In this document: one piece after another, positions 3,505 to 52,224 of the stretch | How the letters are laid out: each line of letters starts with the position of its first letter | Numbering within the stretch: position 1 is the first letter of the stretch | Source: the human T2T-CHM13v2.0 reference genome, Homo sapiens | Direction: 5' to 3' (one strand) | Length of the DNA stretch: 64,000 bases | NCBI RefSeq assembly: GCF_009914755.1 | Contig: NC_060941.1 | Translations under genes and position numbers: made by a program | Notes under the pieces: generated by a model | The model's input: the letters and a program-made list of their open reading frames with translations, nothing else | What the model was told of the DNA's origin: nothing | Databases searched by the model: none

Positions 3505-4094
3505 GCCCAGGTCACCAGCCCAGGTCACCAGGCCAGGGCTCTTCATCATCCTGAAGGAGGGGAGTAAGAAAGGGATGGTCTCTTTGTTCTTACTAATGCC
3601 TTCACCCCTCAGCCCTGCCTCCTCAGAGAGACTCTTGGCAGGGAGGAAAAAGTGAGGAGAGGCTACTATGAGGAGCAGGAACTTCTTAGACTGTTAGGCC
3701 CTTTCAGTCAAGCTCATTCCCCATTTAAAAAGACGTTACTTGCCGGGGACCGTGGCTCACGCCTGTAGTCCCAGCACTTTGGGGGACCAAGGCAGGCAGA
3801 TCACGAGGTCAGGAGTTCGAGACCAGCCTGGCCAACATGGTGAAACCCCATCTCTACTAAAAATACAAAAATTAGCTGGGCATGGTGGTGCGCACCTGTA
3901 ATCCCAGCTACTCGGGAGGCTGAGGCAGAAGAATCGCTTGAACCCGGCAGGCAGAGGTTGCAGTGAGCCGAGATCACACCACTGCACTCCAGCCTGGCGA
4001 CAGACAGAGCGAGACTCCATCTCAAAAAAAAAAATAAAAAGACATGTTATGCTCTGAGGATCCCCTGTCAAGTCCACCCTGGCCCTGCCTGGAA
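3505..4094 (+). repeat. Dispersed direct duplicate of 8230-8455, interrupted by an Alu
   Basis: 3518-3697 aligns to 8230-8405 and 4059-4094 to 8420-8455. Confidence 0.92.
3741..4040 (+). mobile_element. AluS
   Basis: Full dimer, A tail, TSD-like aaaagac(at)gtta. Confidence 0.95.
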
Positions 4095-4690
4095 GTCAAA
4101 GGCTTTGCTATTTTGCTGTGATGTGGGATTCATCCATATACCTAGATGACGTCTGGGAAGAACTACAGCCTCATTCAGTAGCACCTGGGGGACTCAATCC
4201 ACAGCCCCCATTCCCCAGGTGAGCCCGCATGACACACACATGCAGAAAGAAGGGGACACACACAGACTTACAGGGGAGACAGGCCCTGGATAGAGTCCTC
4301 GGATGGGAAACTAACCCTCTACTCAGAGGGTGACCTCAGACACGCTCTGCAAACCACCGCAAAAGGAGGGGTTTGCCTACATTCCCCGGTAAGAGTCAGG
4401 CAGTCTGAGATTCTATGAGTCCAAGCATAAGTGCCCTCTGTGAGTGCTAGCCTCCAGACCCAGCAGAATTTGGCACTAGGACCTTGAAGGGGACCCAGAG
4501 TCACAATGATGGAGTCACTCTGAGAGGCTATGGAGAAAGGAAGAGCAACCAAAAAGCTGCAGGCGGCAAATTTCACTTTGCTTTTCAAAGTGGTTGATTC
4601 CAGCTAGGGGCTTGGCGTTGATTCCTAGGCAAGTCCTGGGGCAAATTAATAAACAAACGCTTTGAGGACCCTTAGAAAAGGAAGCAGTGG

Positions 4691-4991
4691 GGCCGGGCGC
4701 AGTGGCTCATGCCTATAATCCCAGTACTTTGGGAGGCTGAGGTGGGCAGATCAGTTGAGCTCAGGAGTTCGAGACCAGCCCGGCCAACCTGGTGAAACCC
4801 TGTCTACTAAAAATACAAAAATTAGACAGGCGTGGTGGTGGGCACGTATTTAGCTGTAATCCTAGCTACCTGGGAGACTGAGGCAGGAGAATCACTTAAA
4901 CCTGGGAGGCGGGGGTTGCAGTGAGCCGAGATGGCCCCACTGCACTCCAGCCTAGGAGACAGAGCAAGACTCTGTCACCAAAAAAAAAAAA
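4691..4991 (+). mobile_element. AluS
   Basis: Full dimer; agcagtgg TSD recurs after the purine tract. Confidence 0.95.
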
Positions 4992-5150
4992 GAAAGAAAG
5001 GGAAGGGGAGGGGAGGGGAGGGAAGGGGAGGAAAGGGGAGGGGAGGAGAGGAAAGGGGAGGGGAGGAGAGGAAAGGGGAGGGGGAGGGGAGGAAAGGGGA
5101 GGGGAAGGGAAGGGAGGGGAGGGGAGGGGAGGCGAGGGGAGGGGAGGGGA
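4992..5150 (+). repeat. (GGGGA/GGAAA)n polypurine tract derived from the Alu tail
   Basis: About 160 nt of nearly pure A/G. Confidence 0.95.
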
Positions 5151-5833
5151 GCAGTGGCTCCCAGAGCTCTGATAGGTACTCTTGGAACCAGCTCGCTAAC
5201 CCTGCATCATAGCATGTGGCATAGATAGGGTCGCTGGACCAGCAGCTCAAGGGAATGCCAAGGGCTTAGGGGCATCTGGGGAGGGGAACACACTGGCAGA
5301 ATAAGAAACTATCTAAGGAACCCATAGCTCTCACCACTTGAGCTCAAGGAATGTGGGCTCATGAATGGGAACCTGCGGCCACACAAGATGTGGGGACCAA
5401 CAGCCAGTAGCAGATGCGGATGGAACAGCGTGAAGCTGTTCTGAAGGTTTTAAAACTTTTTTAAAAACAGGGGAAATTTTTAGCCAATGAAAGTTCCCTT
5501 AGGAGCCCAATTTGCAAAGATGAAAGTGGATCGGCTCTGGCTGAAGCAGGCTGGGGGGCCCAGAGCCCACCTTCCTCACTCCAGCACATCCCTGTCCCTA
5601 GGCAGCTCCTGAGGGCTTCAAGAGACTGAAACTTAAAAGCCACTGAGCTTGTTCAGCAGCCAGACTGCAGGCCACCCTCCTCTGCAGGTTCCCAGCTCCT
5701 AGCATTGCAGAAAAGGAAAAATGACAATCTAAATAATGGTGGGGGAGGTGGGGGAAGAAGCTTGGGGCCTCATATTAGAAGGAAACACACTAAAATGTTT
5801 ACAGTGGTTTTCTCTAGATGCTGGGACAATGGA

Positions 5834-5955
5834 ATATATATATATATATATATATAAAATAAAGAATTAATTAAGAATTAAGATCCTGTGTTTGGGTTAA
5901 AAATGAACTAGAGGGGCTAGGCGCCATGGCTCACAACTGTAATATATATATATAT
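5834..5955. repeat. (TA)n microsatellite split by a templated copy of 6553-6619
   Basis: TA runs at 5834-5856 and 5942-5955 flank the insert. Confidence 0.85.
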
Positions 5956-6082
5956 TTTACTTTCTACTTTCATCTATTTTCCAATTTTTCTCTAAGGAGT
6001 CCATATTTCTTTTAGTTTAAAACTATTTATGAATGTTTATTGGATAGATAATACAAGTATGTGTCATGTTTATGCAAGGAAC

Positions 6083-49492: not shown

Positions 49493-49952
49493 GGCCGGGT
49501 GCGGTGGCTCACACCTGTAATCCCAGCACTTTGGGAGGCCAAGGCAGGCAGATCACTTGAGGTAAGGAGTTCAAGACCAGCCTGGCCAACATGGTGAAAC
49601 CCTGTCTCTACTAAAAATAAAAAAAAAAATTAGCCAGGTATGGTGGTGCCTGCCTGTAATCCCAGCACTTTGGGAGGCCAAGACGGGCAGATCACTTGAG
49701 GTCAGGAGTTTGAGACCAGCCTGGCCAGCATAGTGAAACCCTGTCTCTACTAAAACTACAAAAAAAAAAATTGGTCAGACGTGGTGGCACATGCCTGTAA
49801 TCCCAGCTACTTGGGAGGCTGAGGCAGGAGAATTGCTTGAACCCAGGAGGCAGAGGTTGTAGTGAGCCAAGATCGCTCCGTTGCACCGCCACCTGGGCTA
49901 CAAAGCGAGACTCCATCTCAAAAAAAAAAGGAAAAAAAAAGAAAAAAAAAAA
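49493..49952 (+). mobile_element. Trimeric Alu (left-left-right)
   Basis: Right-arm start switches back to left-arm sequence at gcctgtaatcccagc (~49650-49665). Confidence 0.9.
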
Positions 49953-51100
49953 AGGAGATGATGAGAAAGAAAACACAGGGCCACCAACATGGGAGGAGTG
50001 AGAAGTGGGGCCGATTTCACGGCAGAACAAGCCGTGAGATGGGAGGGAGAGGACAGAGACAACGGAGGGGCCAGGGAGACAGCCGTCAGCATGAGAAGCA
50101 CTGCAGCTGCTCTCAGGGACGGCAGGTGAGCAGGGCCCGAAGGGATAGAGCTGACCCTCGCGCCACCCACAGATGCCTCTGTCGTCAGCTGGGAACGCAG
50201 AGCCCTGATGAACTGCAGAAATGTTTTAAATGAAAGTCTTCCAAGCATCAAAATATTGAAGCTGTTGTTGTCTCACTGTGGGTTAGTTGCTATGGAGAAA
50301 TTCAGCCCCAGCAGCCACTCTAATTAGACGCCCATGGGAGACAGGCCCCAAATGGGCTGGTTTAGGGCTGGCCTCAGGGAAGGGGTTCCCCGCCCAGAGC
50401 CAAGAATGGGGGACAGCTCCCCACCTCCCAGCCACATGTCCTAAAAATCACCCAAACTGAGTCTTCTCCACTGTTGGAGGCATAGAGCTGGTAGGGAAAC
50501 TGAGGCCCAGAGAAAGTGAAAGCCCCGCCAAGGTCACAGAACTAGTCGATGGCATGGCTGAGACCACATCCCAAGTGTCCCGCTCTGGGTATTGACGTCT
50601 TCCCAGCACGTAGTCTGTTTCTCTTCCAAGACCCCGTTTGCCAAGCATTTCAAAGCCAGCTCCGTCTCAGGAGTAAGTCAACACCCTAAATATGGTGACT
50701 TCCCAGAGTGGGGCCACGCAGGCCAAGCAAGAGCCAGGGACTGTCCTGGGCTGTGGAGCAGGACCCTGGTGCTTCTCCCCAACTCCTCTGCAGCCCAGCA
50801 GAGCATGGCTAGGGAGGGTCTTCTCTGCTCAATTCCAGACCGATTCTACCTTCCCATGCCTGTACACCTGCCTGGGTACTCGTGCCTCTGAGCCTTCAAG
50901 GCTGATCTCTGCCTGAAATGTCCACCCCTTTGGATGCCCCTTTCTTTCAATCCCAACGTCAACAATGCTCCTTCCTATGTCTCATGGGTTGGCCGGGAAG
51001 AGATGCAGAGGTCATTTCCCCACCCTCCTTGTCCCTCACCTGAACACTGGCAACAGTCTTTCTAACACTCTGGCACTCCCTGCATCTATGAGGCTCATTT

Positions 51101-51441
51101 ATTTTTTCTTTCTTTTTTTTTTTTTTTTTTCTGAGACAGAGTATCGCTCTGTCTGCAGTGCCATCTCGGCTCACTGCAACCTCTGCCTCCTGGGTTCAAG
51201 CGATTCTCCCGCCTCAGCTTCCCCAGTAGCTGGGATTACAGGCACCCGCCACCACACCCGGCTAATGTTTTGTATTTTTAGTAGAGATGGGGTTTCACAG
51301 GACCACCTGTTAAAGGGAACACATCTGTTAAGGGAATACACATGTTGGCCAGGCTGGTCTCAAACTCCTGACCTCAGGTGATCCACCCACCTTGGCCTCC
51401 CAAAGTGCTGGGATTACAGGTGTGAGCCACCACGCCTGGCC
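51101..51441 (-). mobile_element. AluS carrying a 42-bp non-Alu insertion (51299-51340)
   Basis: ggtttcac|insert|catgttggcc. Confidence 0.95.
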
Positions 51442-51842
51442 TGACTGTTCTCTCTTACAACAGCTGGCACTTTTACTTAGCAGCGGCACTTTTACTTAGT
51501 GGCGATGGTCCCCATTCGTCATTGTATTTTCTTGGATGTCTGCCTCTCCTGCAAGGCTATAAGTATGATGAGAGCAGCAATGTGACGACTGATTGCCACA
51601 GGATCCCTGGCACCTAGCAGAGTTCCCGGCACATGTGAGGGGTTCAGCAAATATTTCAAACAGTGAACAGACGAAGGCTGAGCCCCTGCTCTTGGCACAC
51701 CCACAGGATGGGTAAGTATGGAGTGTGGAGCTGCAGATACCACGTCTGAGTGGGGAGGGATGCGGACCCCCAAATGGGATCTTCTTCTTGAGGCTTCTAG
51801 GAAGGTCACCCAGCCAGTGATATGAGACTGGGGTTCACTCAC

Positions 51843-51938
51843 CTCTGGCATCAAAGAATTCATCATCTGAGCTCTCCACAGAGTCACTGAGGACATTTCG
51901 AAGGTGCCAGGGGGCACCGCCGCCCGGGGGAGGACCAC
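51843..51938 (-). CDS. PITPNM3: PITPNM3 exon 2 (96 nt, phase 1-1), encodes (G)GPPPGGGAPWHLRNVLSDSVESSDDEFFDAR with acidic tract and FFAT core
   Basis: Acceptor ttccctttaacag|GTGG, donor CAGAG|gtgagt; this frame is not in the ORF track. Confidence 0.97.
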
Positions 51939-52224
51939 CTGTTAAAGGGAACACATCTGTTAACCAAGCCTGAGATGTTGTCCCAGTATGAGGGAGGTGA
52001 CCCAAGACCCCCCTGGACTAAAGGCCAGTTAGCATCCTGCACATCTGTGCCCTCTCCCTCCGAGGCCTCAGACCTCACAGAGCCCTCCCTCTCCTGTGCT
52101 GTCATTGAAGCTCAAAAACCTCTCTGAGTAAGTGCAGCAGAGCAGGAATGCGTGTGCCCATTTTCCATGTCCTAACACTGAGGCTGGTGGTAGTTATGAG
52201 CCTTTGCCAAGGTGACTTTGCCAA

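What the first reader, a model, noticed from the sequence alone, without database searches (positions are those of the whole stretch)
3505..51963. Five locally templated insertions, all apparently copied from transcriptionally upstream DNA
Seen: insert<-donor pairs 3505-4094<-8230-8455 (direct), 5875-5943<-6553-6619 (direct), 15641-15796<-16516-16669 (inverted), 24112-24305<-26872-27065 (inverted), 51299-51331<-51931-51963 (direct). I called the insert as the copy that interrupts a microsatellite, LTR or Alu or has duplicated junctions; the donor is the copy continuous with its context. Known: short nearby-templated inserts with stuttered junctions are scars of polymerase-theta end joining or FoSTeS/MMBIR. 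Inference: every donor lies 0.6-4.7 kb to the right, which is upstream in PITPNM3 transcription. That could reflect fixed replication-fork polarity, or repair templated by nascent pre-mRNA. Five of five is only p=0.06 (two-sided coin flip), so this is a hypothesis.
Basis: partly seen in the sequence, partly recalled or inferred. Interest (0 to 1): 0.75.

Follow-up and report, generated by a model that had tools for sequence, protein, structure and literature searches.

The report
Local repair duplications in PITPNM3 introns
Five short stretches inside introns of the human PITPNM3 gene are real copies of DNA lying 0.6-4.7 kb away, scars of break repair of a kind described in 2009, and their shared direction rests on too few cases to mean much yet.

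Summary
All five insert/donor pairs exist at the stated coordinates. An exhaustive scan shows they are the only dispersed low-copy duplications in the window, so they were not cherry-picked. Without outgroup genomes, I polarised each pair from its context: a broken Alu, a broken LTR-like repeat, a truncated Alu junction, a truncated high-copy (L1-like) repeat junction and a truncated MIR-like element. In all five the left copy is derived. They are independent events (0-12% divergence, mixed orientation, different offsets). They fit the published class of repair-mediated proximal duplications (Pace et al. 2009): 824 human cases, donor under 5 kb away, mean 162 bp, sometimes chimeric. P2 and P5 also carry stuttered, Pol-theta-like junctions, and P1 abuts a T-run. 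In 180 kb of flanking sequence I found one more event in the same gene, a two-donor mosaic whose donors also lie to the right. That makes 6 of 6 (two-sided p=0.031, post hoc). Two pairs in the neighbouring gene could not be polarised. The events are therefore ordinary. The direction bias is an untested hypothesis, most likely chance. It could be tested directly on the published set of 824 events.

The parts
3507..3744 (+). P1 acceptor, left part. It holds a 13-bp tandem stutter (cccaggtcaccag twice), a copy of 8230-8405, and about 47 bp with no counterpart in the donor.
   Evidence: 90.0% identity over 180 columns. The flanks are unique in the genome.
3475..3506 (+). T-run (T9 A T10) plus about 11 nt of filler, abutting the P1 acceptor. 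It reads as a poly(A) on the gene's sense strand.
   Evidence: The flank similarity that might be a target-site duplication is not significant: 8.2% of 20,000 random flank pairs score as high.
3745..4040 (+). Alu inserted later inside the P1 acceptor, flanked by its own direct repeat (aaaaagac...tta).
   Evidence: sequence; 64 other genomic matches at 72-91% identity over this part.
4059..4094 (+). P1 acceptor, right part; copy of 8420-8455.
   Evidence: 36/36 exact.
8230..8455 (+). P1 donor. Its left end lies inside a MIR-like SINE copy spanning 8080-8243.
   Evidence: a profile built from 32 local copies hits 8080-8243 (E=2.6e-41) and finds nothing in 3200-3800 at E<=10; the partner is the only other full match in the genome.
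5875..5943 (+). P2 acceptor, lying inside a (TA)n microsatellite. It carries 35 bp of unique flank plus about 30 bp of an Alu head. A GAATTAA stutter lies just upstream (about 5862-5874).
6553..6619 (+). P2 donor: unique flank running into a full-length Alu (about 6591-6900) that has its own target-site duplication, AATGAACTC.
   Evidence: sequence.
15641..15796 (+). P3 acceptor: a clean insertion that splits a dispersed LTR-like repeat.
   Evidence: both flanks lie adjacent at 3 other genomic copies; alignment A5 shows the extra block only in the window.
16516..16669 (-). P3 donor (inverted relative to the acceptor). It is unique sequence lying 30 bp to the right of a high-copy repeat.
24112..24305 (+). 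P4 acceptor, in unique sequence. Its first 90 bp are repeat-derived and end abruptly at the copy's edge.
26872..27065 (-). P4 donor (inverted). It straddles the border between unique DNA (26872-26980) and a high-copy old repeat that continues to at least 27340.
   Evidence: 38 of 40 listed matches are repeat copies covering query positions 377-741. They cross the copy's edge at position 466.
51299..51340 (+). P5 acceptor: a 42-bp insertion splitting an Alu between ...GGGGTTTCAC and CATGTTGG..., with no Alu bases lost. It is 33 bp of exact copy plus 9 bp of a slipped re-copy.
   Evidence: a single 42-nt insert state at position 92 of an Alu profile.
51931..51963 (+). P5 donor: 8 nt of the 5' end of exon 51843-51938 plus the last 25 nt of the upstream intron, including the 3' splice site.
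   Evidence: with the exon coordinates in the annotation given with the task.

Best explanation
The five pairs are independent germline break-repair scars of the known type called repair-mediated (proximal) duplications.

Mechanism (inferred):
1. A chromosome break formed in an intron. In three cases it was at a fragile or repetitive spot: a (TA)n tract, a T-run, or an Alu.
2. A 3' end primed on a nearby sequence 0.6-4.7 kb away and copied 33-226 bp.
3. The end sometimes slipped and re-primed (the stutters in P2 and P5).
4. It was then rejoined to the other end.

The events occurred at different times in primate evolution. That all donors lie to the right, upstream in transcription, is most likely coincidence.

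Shown here: the copies, their uniqueness in the genome, their polarity and their junction structure. Inferred: the repair pathway, the ages, and the chance nature of the shared direction.
For: Reality and completeness of the pairs.

Each segment has only its partner elsewhere in the genome.

Polarity (left copy derived):
- P5 splits an Alu with no loss of Alu bases.
- P3 splits a repeat whose flanks are contiguous in 3 other copies.
- P2 carries a flank-plus-Alu-head junction. That junction can only have arisen at the right-hand, full-length Alu, which has its own target-site duplication.
- The P4 donor straddles a repeat border, and the repeat continues beyond the copy.
- The P1 donor starts inside a MIR-like element that the acceptor lacks.

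Independence: the offsets are 4711/4361, 678, 875, 2760 and 632 bp, the orientations are mixed, and identities run from 87.8% to 100%.

Fit to the published class (Pace et al. 2009, PMC2671141; sections read):
- 824 human duplications with the donor under 5 kb away.
- Mean length 162 bp, maximum 619 bp.
- 20 chimeric acceptors.
- Partial exon/intron donors.
- Most events are older than the hominid split.

The two-donor mosaic found outside the window matches their chimeric type.

With the rate Pace et al. use (2.2e-9 per site per year) and d=2ut, the divergences give roughly 28 (P3), 23 (P1), 19 (P4) and 16 (P2) million years. P5 has no differences in 33 bp. These ages are my own arithmetic.
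Against: Direction:
- The donor lies to the right in all 6 polarised events in this gene (two-sided p=0.031). This is mildly unlikely under pure chance.
- The two other local pairs found in the neighbouring minus-strand gene could not be polarised, so the trend was neither broken nor extended.

Features that fit the class poorly:
- P1 abuts a 20-nt T-run, whereas 0 of 39 proximal duplications inspected by Pace et al. had a poly(A/T) tract.
- One donor edge of the mosaic event coincides exactly with the first base of an intron. A DNA-templated model does not predict this.

Density: five events of 50 bp or more in 105 kb is far denser than a simple extrapolation from Pace's conservative count. 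I could not measure background density.

No outgroup genome was available, so polarity rests on context alone.
Confidence: 0.72

Rival explanations
1. Transcript-templated repair. Breaks in a transcribed gene are patched by reverse-transcribing the gene's own nascent or unspliced RNA, or an excised intron, that is tethered nearby. Such RNA mostly carries sequence upstream of the break, so donors are upstream. Either break end can prime, which gives both direct and inverted copies.
For: - The donor is upstream in 6 of 6 events.
- The P5 donor spans an intron-exon border, so the template was unspliced.
- Donor B of the mosaic event ends exactly at intron base +1. That is where a copy running toward the 5' end of an excised intron RNA would stop, and that junction shows no microhomology.
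- The P1 acceptor ends in a poly(A) on the gene's sense strand.
- Strand skews follow gene orientation. On the + strand, TA is -5.6% and GC -4.9% in PITPNM3, and both are positive in the plus-strand gene PIMREG. From recalled literature on transcription-associated asymmetry, this fits germline transcription.
- RNA-templated break repair is documented in cells. I saw this only in the search listing and abstract starts and did not read the papers.
Against: - Six events, with a pattern noticed after the fact.
- Pace et al. found SDSA-type junctions and no poly(A) in 39 of 39 proximal cases.
- The putative target-site duplication at P1 is not significant, and no AATAAA lies near the donor's 3' end (read).
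- The intron +1 coincidence is a single case.
- No feature here excludes a DNA template.
Confidence: 0.08
2. Fixed replication-fork polarity. The events are template switches at stalled or collapsed forks (FoSTeS/MMBIR type). A constant fork direction across this locus in the germline would put the accessible template always on the same side.
For: - The same 6 of 6 count.
- The stutters and microhomology at the P2 and P5 junctions.
- The mosaic event with two template switches.
Against: - No fork-direction data were available here.
- The composition skew follows gene strand rather than a smooth replication gradient, so it cannot reveal fork direction.
- The events span tens of millions of years, which would need a stable origin layout.
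- As I reason it, fork-restart models do not clearly predict one side for short patch copies.
- The roughly 0.9-kb duplication near MED31 appears to have its ancestral copy on the left. It may be a different kind of event.
Confidence: 0.07
3. For P1 only: an L1-mediated retro-insertion (class 1 templated sequence insertion) of a fragment of PITPNM3 intron RNA of about 226 nt, rather than break repair.
For: - A 20-nt A-run sits at the 3' end in sense orientation.
- The copy has the same orientation as the gene.
- There is flank similarity (AAAGCCTT vs AAAACCTT) where a target-site duplication would lie.
Against: - The flank similarity is matched by 8.2% of 20,000 random flank pairs.
- There is no cryptic polyadenylation signal. 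Onozawa and Aplan list polyadenylation 10-30 nt after such a signal as a defining feature (abstract).
- An 11-nt filler and a 13-bp stutter lie between the copy and the A-run.
- A random retro-insertion landing 4.7 kb from its source is very improbable.
Confidence: 0.2
4. The pairs are chance similarities, or ordinary members of interspersed repeat families, and not local copies.
For: Parts of P2, P4 and P1 do contain repeat-derived sequence (Alu head, old high-copy repeat, MIR-like end).
Against: - Each pair shares unique sequence plus a specific repeat/unique junction.
- Whole-genome searches give only the partner as a full-length match.
Confidence: 0.01

Closest known systems
[quoted passage not shown]
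   Same: - Single-copy donor on the same chromosome, under 5 kb away.
- Length tens to hundreds of bp.
- The acceptor interrupts a transposable element.
- Filler and microhomology at the junctions.
- Occasional two-donor chimeras.
- Donors sometimes include exon/intron borders.
- Mostly of primate age.
   Different: - P5 (42 bp) is below their 50-bp cut-off.
- P1, P2 and P4 do not interrupt an annotated transposable element, so their pipeline would have missed them.
- P1 abuts a T-run, which none of their 39 inspected proximal cases had.
- In the text I searched, they did not examine donor side relative to transcription or replication ('direction' 0 occurrences, 'downstream' 0).
'Doublets', short paired local duplications (Thomas et al. 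2004, PNAS). Known to me only through Pace's discussion and from recall; the paper is not held.
   Same: Short, low-copy, closely spaced paired duplications, suggested to arise from imperfect break repair.
   Different: Doublets were defined without polarity. Here the donor and acceptor are assigned.
Polymerase-theta-mediated end joining with templated insertions (recalled knowledge; no paper read)
   Same: P2 and P5 show aborted and re-primed copying. In P2 the stutter is GAATTAA. In P5 there is a 7-nt CTGTTAA re-priming. Joins use short microhomology.
   Different: From recall, typical Pol-theta templates lie within tens of bp of the break and inserts are a few to about 30 bp. Here templates are 630-680 bp away for P2 and P5, and the inserts of P1, P3 and P4 are 156-226 bp.
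Templated sequence insertion polymorphisms, class 1 (L1-mediated) and class 2 (patch repair) (Onozawa and Aplan 2016, PMC5110952; abstract read)
   Same: A templated patch inserted at a break, as in class 2. P1 has a poly(A)-like tract, as in class 1.
   Different: Those templates come from distant regions and are RNA-derived. Here the templates are local, and the class 1 hallmarks are not met for P1.
FoSTeS/MMBIR template switching (recalled; search listing only)
   Same: Serial template switches with microhomology; mosaic products.
   Different: From recall, these are usually invoked for larger copy-number changes. No associated deletion or duplication of flanking DNA is seen here.

Membership tests
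Repair-mediated proximal duplication (Pace 2009) | The acceptor interrupts an otherwise continuous sequence (a transposable element in their pipeline). | tested here: met
   P3 splits a dispersed repeat. P5 splits an Alu. P2 splits a (TA)n tract. P1 and P4 sit in unique DNA, so their interruption cannot be shown directly.
Repair-mediated proximal duplication (Pace 2009) | The inserted sequence is found at only one other place in the genome. | tested here: met
   the partner is the only full-length match. The tool scores only the best candidates, so these counts are lower bounds.
Repair-mediated proximal duplication (Pace 2009) | Donor within 5 kb on the same chromosome and more than 50 bp away. 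| tested here: met
   Offsets are 632-4711 bp.
Repair-mediated proximal duplication (Pace 2009) | Insert of at least 50 bp (observed maximum 619 bp). | tested here: met
   Four of five inserts qualify (69, 156, 194 and about 226 bp). P5 is 42 bp and falls below the cut-off.
Repair-mediated proximal duplication (Pace 2009) | No poly(A/T) tail or retroposition hallmarks. | tested here: inconclusive
   P2-P5 have none. P1 abuts a T9AT10 run, and its putative target-site duplication is not significant.
Repair-mediated proximal duplication (Pace 2009) | Junctions with microhomology, filler or a small deletion. | tested here: met
   P1 has 11 nt of filler plus a 13-bp stutter. P2 has a stutter and TA(AT) microhomology. 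P5 has a 9-nt slipped re-copy and CAT microhomology. P3 and P4 junctions are nearly blunt. Deletions cannot be scored without an empty site, except for P5, where none is seen.
Repair-mediated proximal duplication (Pace 2009) | An empty orthologous site in an outgroup species. | not testable with these tools
Polymerase-theta end joining (templated insertion) | Short insert copied from sequence next to the break, with microhomology and iterative re-priming. | tested here: inconclusive
   Re-priming and microhomology are seen in P2 and P5. The templates are 630-680 bp away, and P1, P3 and P4 are 156-226 bp. Dependence on the enzyme is not testable. The feature list is recalled.
Class 1 templated sequence insertion (L1 ORF2-mediated) | Target-site duplication, polyadenylation 10-30 nt after a cryptic signal, and insertion at TTTT/A (abstract). 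| tested here: not met
   P1 only. The flank similarity is matched by 8.2% of random pairs. No AATAAA is present in the donor near the copy's 3' end. The target site reads GC/AAAG on the sense strand.
FoSTeS/MMBIR | Replication-linked serial template switches at microhomology. From recall, usually with copy-number change of flanking DNA. | tested here: inconclusive
   Serial switches are seen in P5 and in the mosaic event. No flanking copy-number change is seen. A link to replication is not testable.

The most novel reading that the evidence does not exclude
Local repair duplications inside transcribed genes may be copied from the gene's own nascent or unspliced RNA, or from an excised intron, rather than from DNA. 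Donors would then lie preferentially upstream in transcription. Three observations feed this reading:
- 6 of 6 events in PITPNM3 have upstream donors.
- One donor ends exactly at intron base +1.
- One acceptor ends in a sense-strand poly(A).

A weaker variant is a bias set by replication-fork direction.
Probability: 0.1. Interest if true: 0.8.

Novelty: new member of a known kind. Interest (0 to 1): 0.3.

Why it matters
As they stand, the five events are ordinary examples of a known mutational process. They show that it can be read directly from sequence, and that it moves functional pieces around: P5 places a copy of a 3' splice site into the next intron.

If the direction bias were real, it would be the first germline, evolutionary-scale evidence that break repair in human genes uses transcripts, or a fixed fork geometry, as a template. 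That question has so far been addressed mainly in cell-culture reporters. Among the terms I searched, the published catalogue of 824 polarised events was never analysed for donor side, so the question is cheap to settle.

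Tried and rejected
- Whole-genome search of the full P1 acceptor region. It was swamped by Alu matches (40 candidates scored of 3288) and told me nothing about the flanks. I repeated it with Alu-free flanks.
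- Automated polarity calling by BLAST context in the 244-kb set. It resolved only the Alu-linked pairs P2 and P5. It also gave spurious 'spanning' counts where gapped alignments bridged the P5 insert.
- The same idea with nhmmer. Alignments over-extended through A-rich tails, and P3 and P4 stayed unresolved. I abandoned it as unreliable.
- Scan of 103 Alu copies for internal inserts of 10 nt or more, to find more polarised events. There were 7 such inserts. Five were A/T-rich simple runs, one was P5, and one was a 16-nt block at 146708-146723 that I did not follow up. No new event came of it.
- Polarising pairs C and D in KIAA0753. For C, both copies lie in unique DNA. For D, the left copy lies just before the start of a repeat, but no genomic copy spans both sides. 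Both stayed unresolved.
- Replication in long genes of known strand. I located dynein heavy-chain genes and their strands with Pfam searches of the genome.
- Supplementary Table S1 of Pace et al. was closed. It may list some of these very events and would allow the direction test.
- Earlier findings were not open.
- Thomas et al. 2004 is not held.
- Pfam on reading frames of the repeat next to the P4 donor, to name it as L1: 0 of 12 frames matched. 'L1-like' therefore rests on recall only.
- Target-site duplication test for P1: not significant.
- Composition skew as a proxy for fork direction: it follows gene strand, so it cannot separate replication from transcription.

Full report
**The observation**

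The window is human chr17, inside PITPNM3, which is on the minus strand according to the annotation given with the task.

| Pair | Acceptor | Donor | Orientation | Match |
|---|---|---|---|---|
| P1 | 3519-3697 and 4059-4094 | 8230-8405 and 8420-8455 | direct | 90.0% of 180 columns; 36/36 |
| P2 | 5875-5943 | 6553-6619 | direct | 92.8% of 69 |
| P3 | 15641-15796 | 16516-16669 | inverted | 87.8% of 156 |
| P4 | 24112-24305 | 26872-27065 | inverted | 91.8% of 194 |
| P5 | 51299-51331 | 51931-51963 | direct | 33/33 |

I scanned the whole window for exact matches of 22 bp or more on both strands. This gave 498 raw matches. Removing low-complexity and high-copy matches left 14 rows. Eight belong to these five pairs and six to three tandem-duplication loci. 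The list is therefore complete, not selected. A self-BLAST added only two much older pairs (68-71% identity) that look like members of old repeat families.

**Are they local copies or repeat-family members?**

The held genome is the whole T2T assembly. For every pair, the duplicated segment has only its partner as a full-length match elsewhere in the genome. Parts of some segments are repeat-derived, and this turned out to be useful for polarity.

**Which copy is derived?**

No outgroup genome was available, so I used context.

- **P5.** The left copy is a 42-bp block splitting an Alu between ...GGGGTTTCAC and CATGTTGG.... An Alu profile built from 103 local copies shows it as one insert state with no Alu bases lost. 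The donor is 8 nt of the annotated exon 51843-51938 plus the last 25 nt of the preceding intron.
- **P2.** Both copies carry the same 35 bp of unique sequence joined to an Alu head. Only the right-hand Alu is full length and has its own target-site duplication (AATGAACTC). The left copy stops about 30 bp into the Alu and sits inside a (TA)n tract. The junction can only have been created on the right.
- **P3.** The flanks of the left copy belong to a dispersed repeat. At three other genomic copies the two flanks are adjacent. An alignment shows the extra block only in the window. The donor is unique.
- **P4.** The right copy straddles the border between unique DNA and an old high-copy repeat that continues for at least 275 bp past the copy. 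Of the 40 listed matches, 38 cross that edge. The left copy carries only the first 90 bp of repeat and then stops. I recall this repeat as L1-like, but Pfam did not confirm it.
- **P1.** The flanks of the left copy are unique. A profile built from 32 other copies of a MIR-like element in the surrounding 244 kb matches the right locus at 8080-8243 (E=2.6e-41), running across the start of the duplicated segment. It finds nothing at the left locus at E<=10. The name 'MIR' is recalled.

The evidence is strong for P2-P5 and moderate for P1.

**Anatomy of the junctions**

- **P5.** The insert is an exact 33-bp copy. It is followed by 9 bp that re-copy the same donor after slipping back at a repeated CTGTTAA. 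The join to the Alu is at CAT.
- **P2.** An aborted GAATTAA copy lies just upstream, and the join into the (TA)n tract is at TA(AT).
- **P1.** It begins with a T9AT10 run, 11 nt of filler and a 13-bp tandem stutter. It also has about 50 bp in its middle where the donor has 14 bp.
- **P3 and P4.** These are nearly blunt insertions.

The events differ in offset, orientation and divergence, so they are independent. With the substitution rate used by Pace et al., the divergences correspond to roughly 16-28 million years for P1-P4. P5 has no differences. This is my arithmetic. Error-prone copying would make the ages too old.

**What is known**

A full-text search led to Pace, Sen, Batzer and Feschotte 2009. 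I read its abstract and sections 6-8, 10, 11 and 14. They describe repair-mediated duplications as follows:
- Insertions of 50 bp or more interrupt transposable elements.
- The single parental copy lies within 5 kb in 824 human cases.
- Mean length is 162 bp and the maximum is 619 bp.
- 20 acceptors are chimeras of two donors.
- Some donors are partial exon/intron pieces.
- Most events predate the hominids.
- Junctions carry microhomology, filler or small deletions, ascribed to synthesis-dependent strand annealing.
- None of the 39 proximal cases they inspected had a poly(A/T) tract.

They link these events to the 'doublets' of Thomas et al. 2004, a paper that is not held here.

The five pairs fit this class. 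P2 and P5 also look like polymerase-theta products (recalled criteria), though their templates are unusually far away. P1 is the odd one because of the T-run. I tested the idea that it is an L1-mediated retro-insertion:
- The flank similarity that could be a target-site duplication is matched by 8.2% of 20,000 random flank pairs.
- No polyadenylation signal lies near the donor's end.
- Both are hallmarks in the abstract of Onozawa and Aplan 2016.

I keep this as a minority reading for P1.

**The direction claim**

Five of five gives p=0.0625. To enlarge the sample I fetched 180 kb around the window and repeated the scans on the 244 kb.

The rest of PITPNM3 contains one more event:
- The acceptor lies at window -16648..-16533.
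- It consists of 53 bp copied from 1.2 kb to the right, 8 nt of filler, and 55 bp copied from 3.2 kb to the right.
- A mosaic is most simply a single acceptor.
- The second donor starts exactly at the first base of the intron that follows a DDHD-domain exon. This is a splice site that must be ancestral.

That makes 6 of 6 events with donors to the right (p=0.031).

In the neighbouring minus-strand gene KIAA0753 there are two further pairs. For C, both copies lie in unique DNA. For D, the context was ambiguous. Neither could be polarised. A third pair there is two paralogous coding exons. Two more duplications lie at or just beyond the 5' end of MED31.

An Alu-insert scan found no additional polarised event. 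Automated polarity calling failed for anything but Alu-linked pairs.

I planned a replication in long genes of both strands and located them with Pfam searches. The supplement of Pace et al., which would allow the test on hundreds of events, was closed.

In Pace's main text, 'direction' and 'downstream' occur 0 times. Four further searches listed no paper whose title or abstract start addresses donor side relative to transcription or fork direction for germline local duplications. I judged this from the listings only. On these searches the question appears untested in print.

**Weighing**

The pattern was noticed after the fact, among several patterns that could have caught the eye. The sample is six, and as I reason it the standard DNA-templated model predicts no side. 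Chance is the best explanation.

Three details keep a transcript-templated reading alive:
- The count itself.
- The donor edge at intron +1. This is where copying toward the 5' end of an excised intron RNA would stop, and that junction has no microhomology.
- The sense-strand poly(A) at P1.

Composition skews follow gene strand. From recalled literature this fits germline transcription of PITPNM3, but it cannot separate transcription from replication. I put about 10% on a real bias of either origin.

**Verdict**

- The events are ordinary members of a known class.
- The mechanistic labels are partly right.
- The direction hypothesis is unproven but cheaply testable.

Noticed in passing
L010:3352-3467 (window -16648..-16533); donors at L010:4532-4584 and L010:6640-6694: A sixth event in PITPNM3, outside the window. 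It is a mosaic acceptor: 53 bp at 91% identity, 8 nt of filler, then 55 bp at 95%. The donors lie 1.2 and 3.2 kb to the right. The second donor starts exactly at base +1 of the intron that follows a DDHD-domain exon (ending ...GDGQSLLL). CAGAC microhomology is present at the other junction.
   Followed up: partly
window 51299-51340: The P5 insert places a sense-oriented copy of a 3' splice site (pyrimidine tract, AG and 8 exon bases) inside an Alu in the next intron downstream. This is a possible cryptic acceptor site.
   Followed up: no
window 4059-4094 vs 8420-8455: The last 36 bp of P1 are identical, while the first 180 columns are only 90% identical. By my arithmetic, 0.9^36 is about 0.02. 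This could reflect later gene conversion, constraint, or a second event.
   Followed up: no
window 10883-10985, 21988-22116, 23643-23711: Three tandem duplication or minisatellite loci, with periods of about 50, 30 and 46 bp.
   Followed up: no
L019:4816-4902 vs 5884-5976, and L020:3043-3081 vs 7211-7249 (inverted): Two further local low-copy pairs in KIAA0753: 93 bp at 84%, and 39 bp at 97%. Their polarity could not be determined.
   Followed up: partly
L017:7460-7600 and 7770-7900 (window about 121460-121900): Two adjacent paralogous coding exons of KIAA0753 on the minus strand, each followed by GTA. This is an old exon duplication, not a repair patch.
   Followed up: partly
L022:1259-2389 vs 4853-5771: A duplication of about 0.9 kb (83-86% identity, 3.4-3.6 kb apart). 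The left copy holds the start of MED31 (reading frame ...MAAAVAMET; the protein start is recalled) and a later Alu. A 180-bp pair at 82% lies at L022:6129-6307 vs 6950-7127.
   Followed up: partly
whole 244 kb (C17:6316001-6560000): After removing Alus, the + strand has TA skew -5.6% and GC skew -4.9% across PITPNM3, and -6.0% and -6.4% across KIAA0753. Both skews are positive in the plus-strand gene PIMREG. The skew follows gene orientation.
   Followed up: partly
L020:2708-2723 (window 146708-146723): A 16-nt non-simple insertion inside an Alu. Its source was not sought.
   Followed up: no
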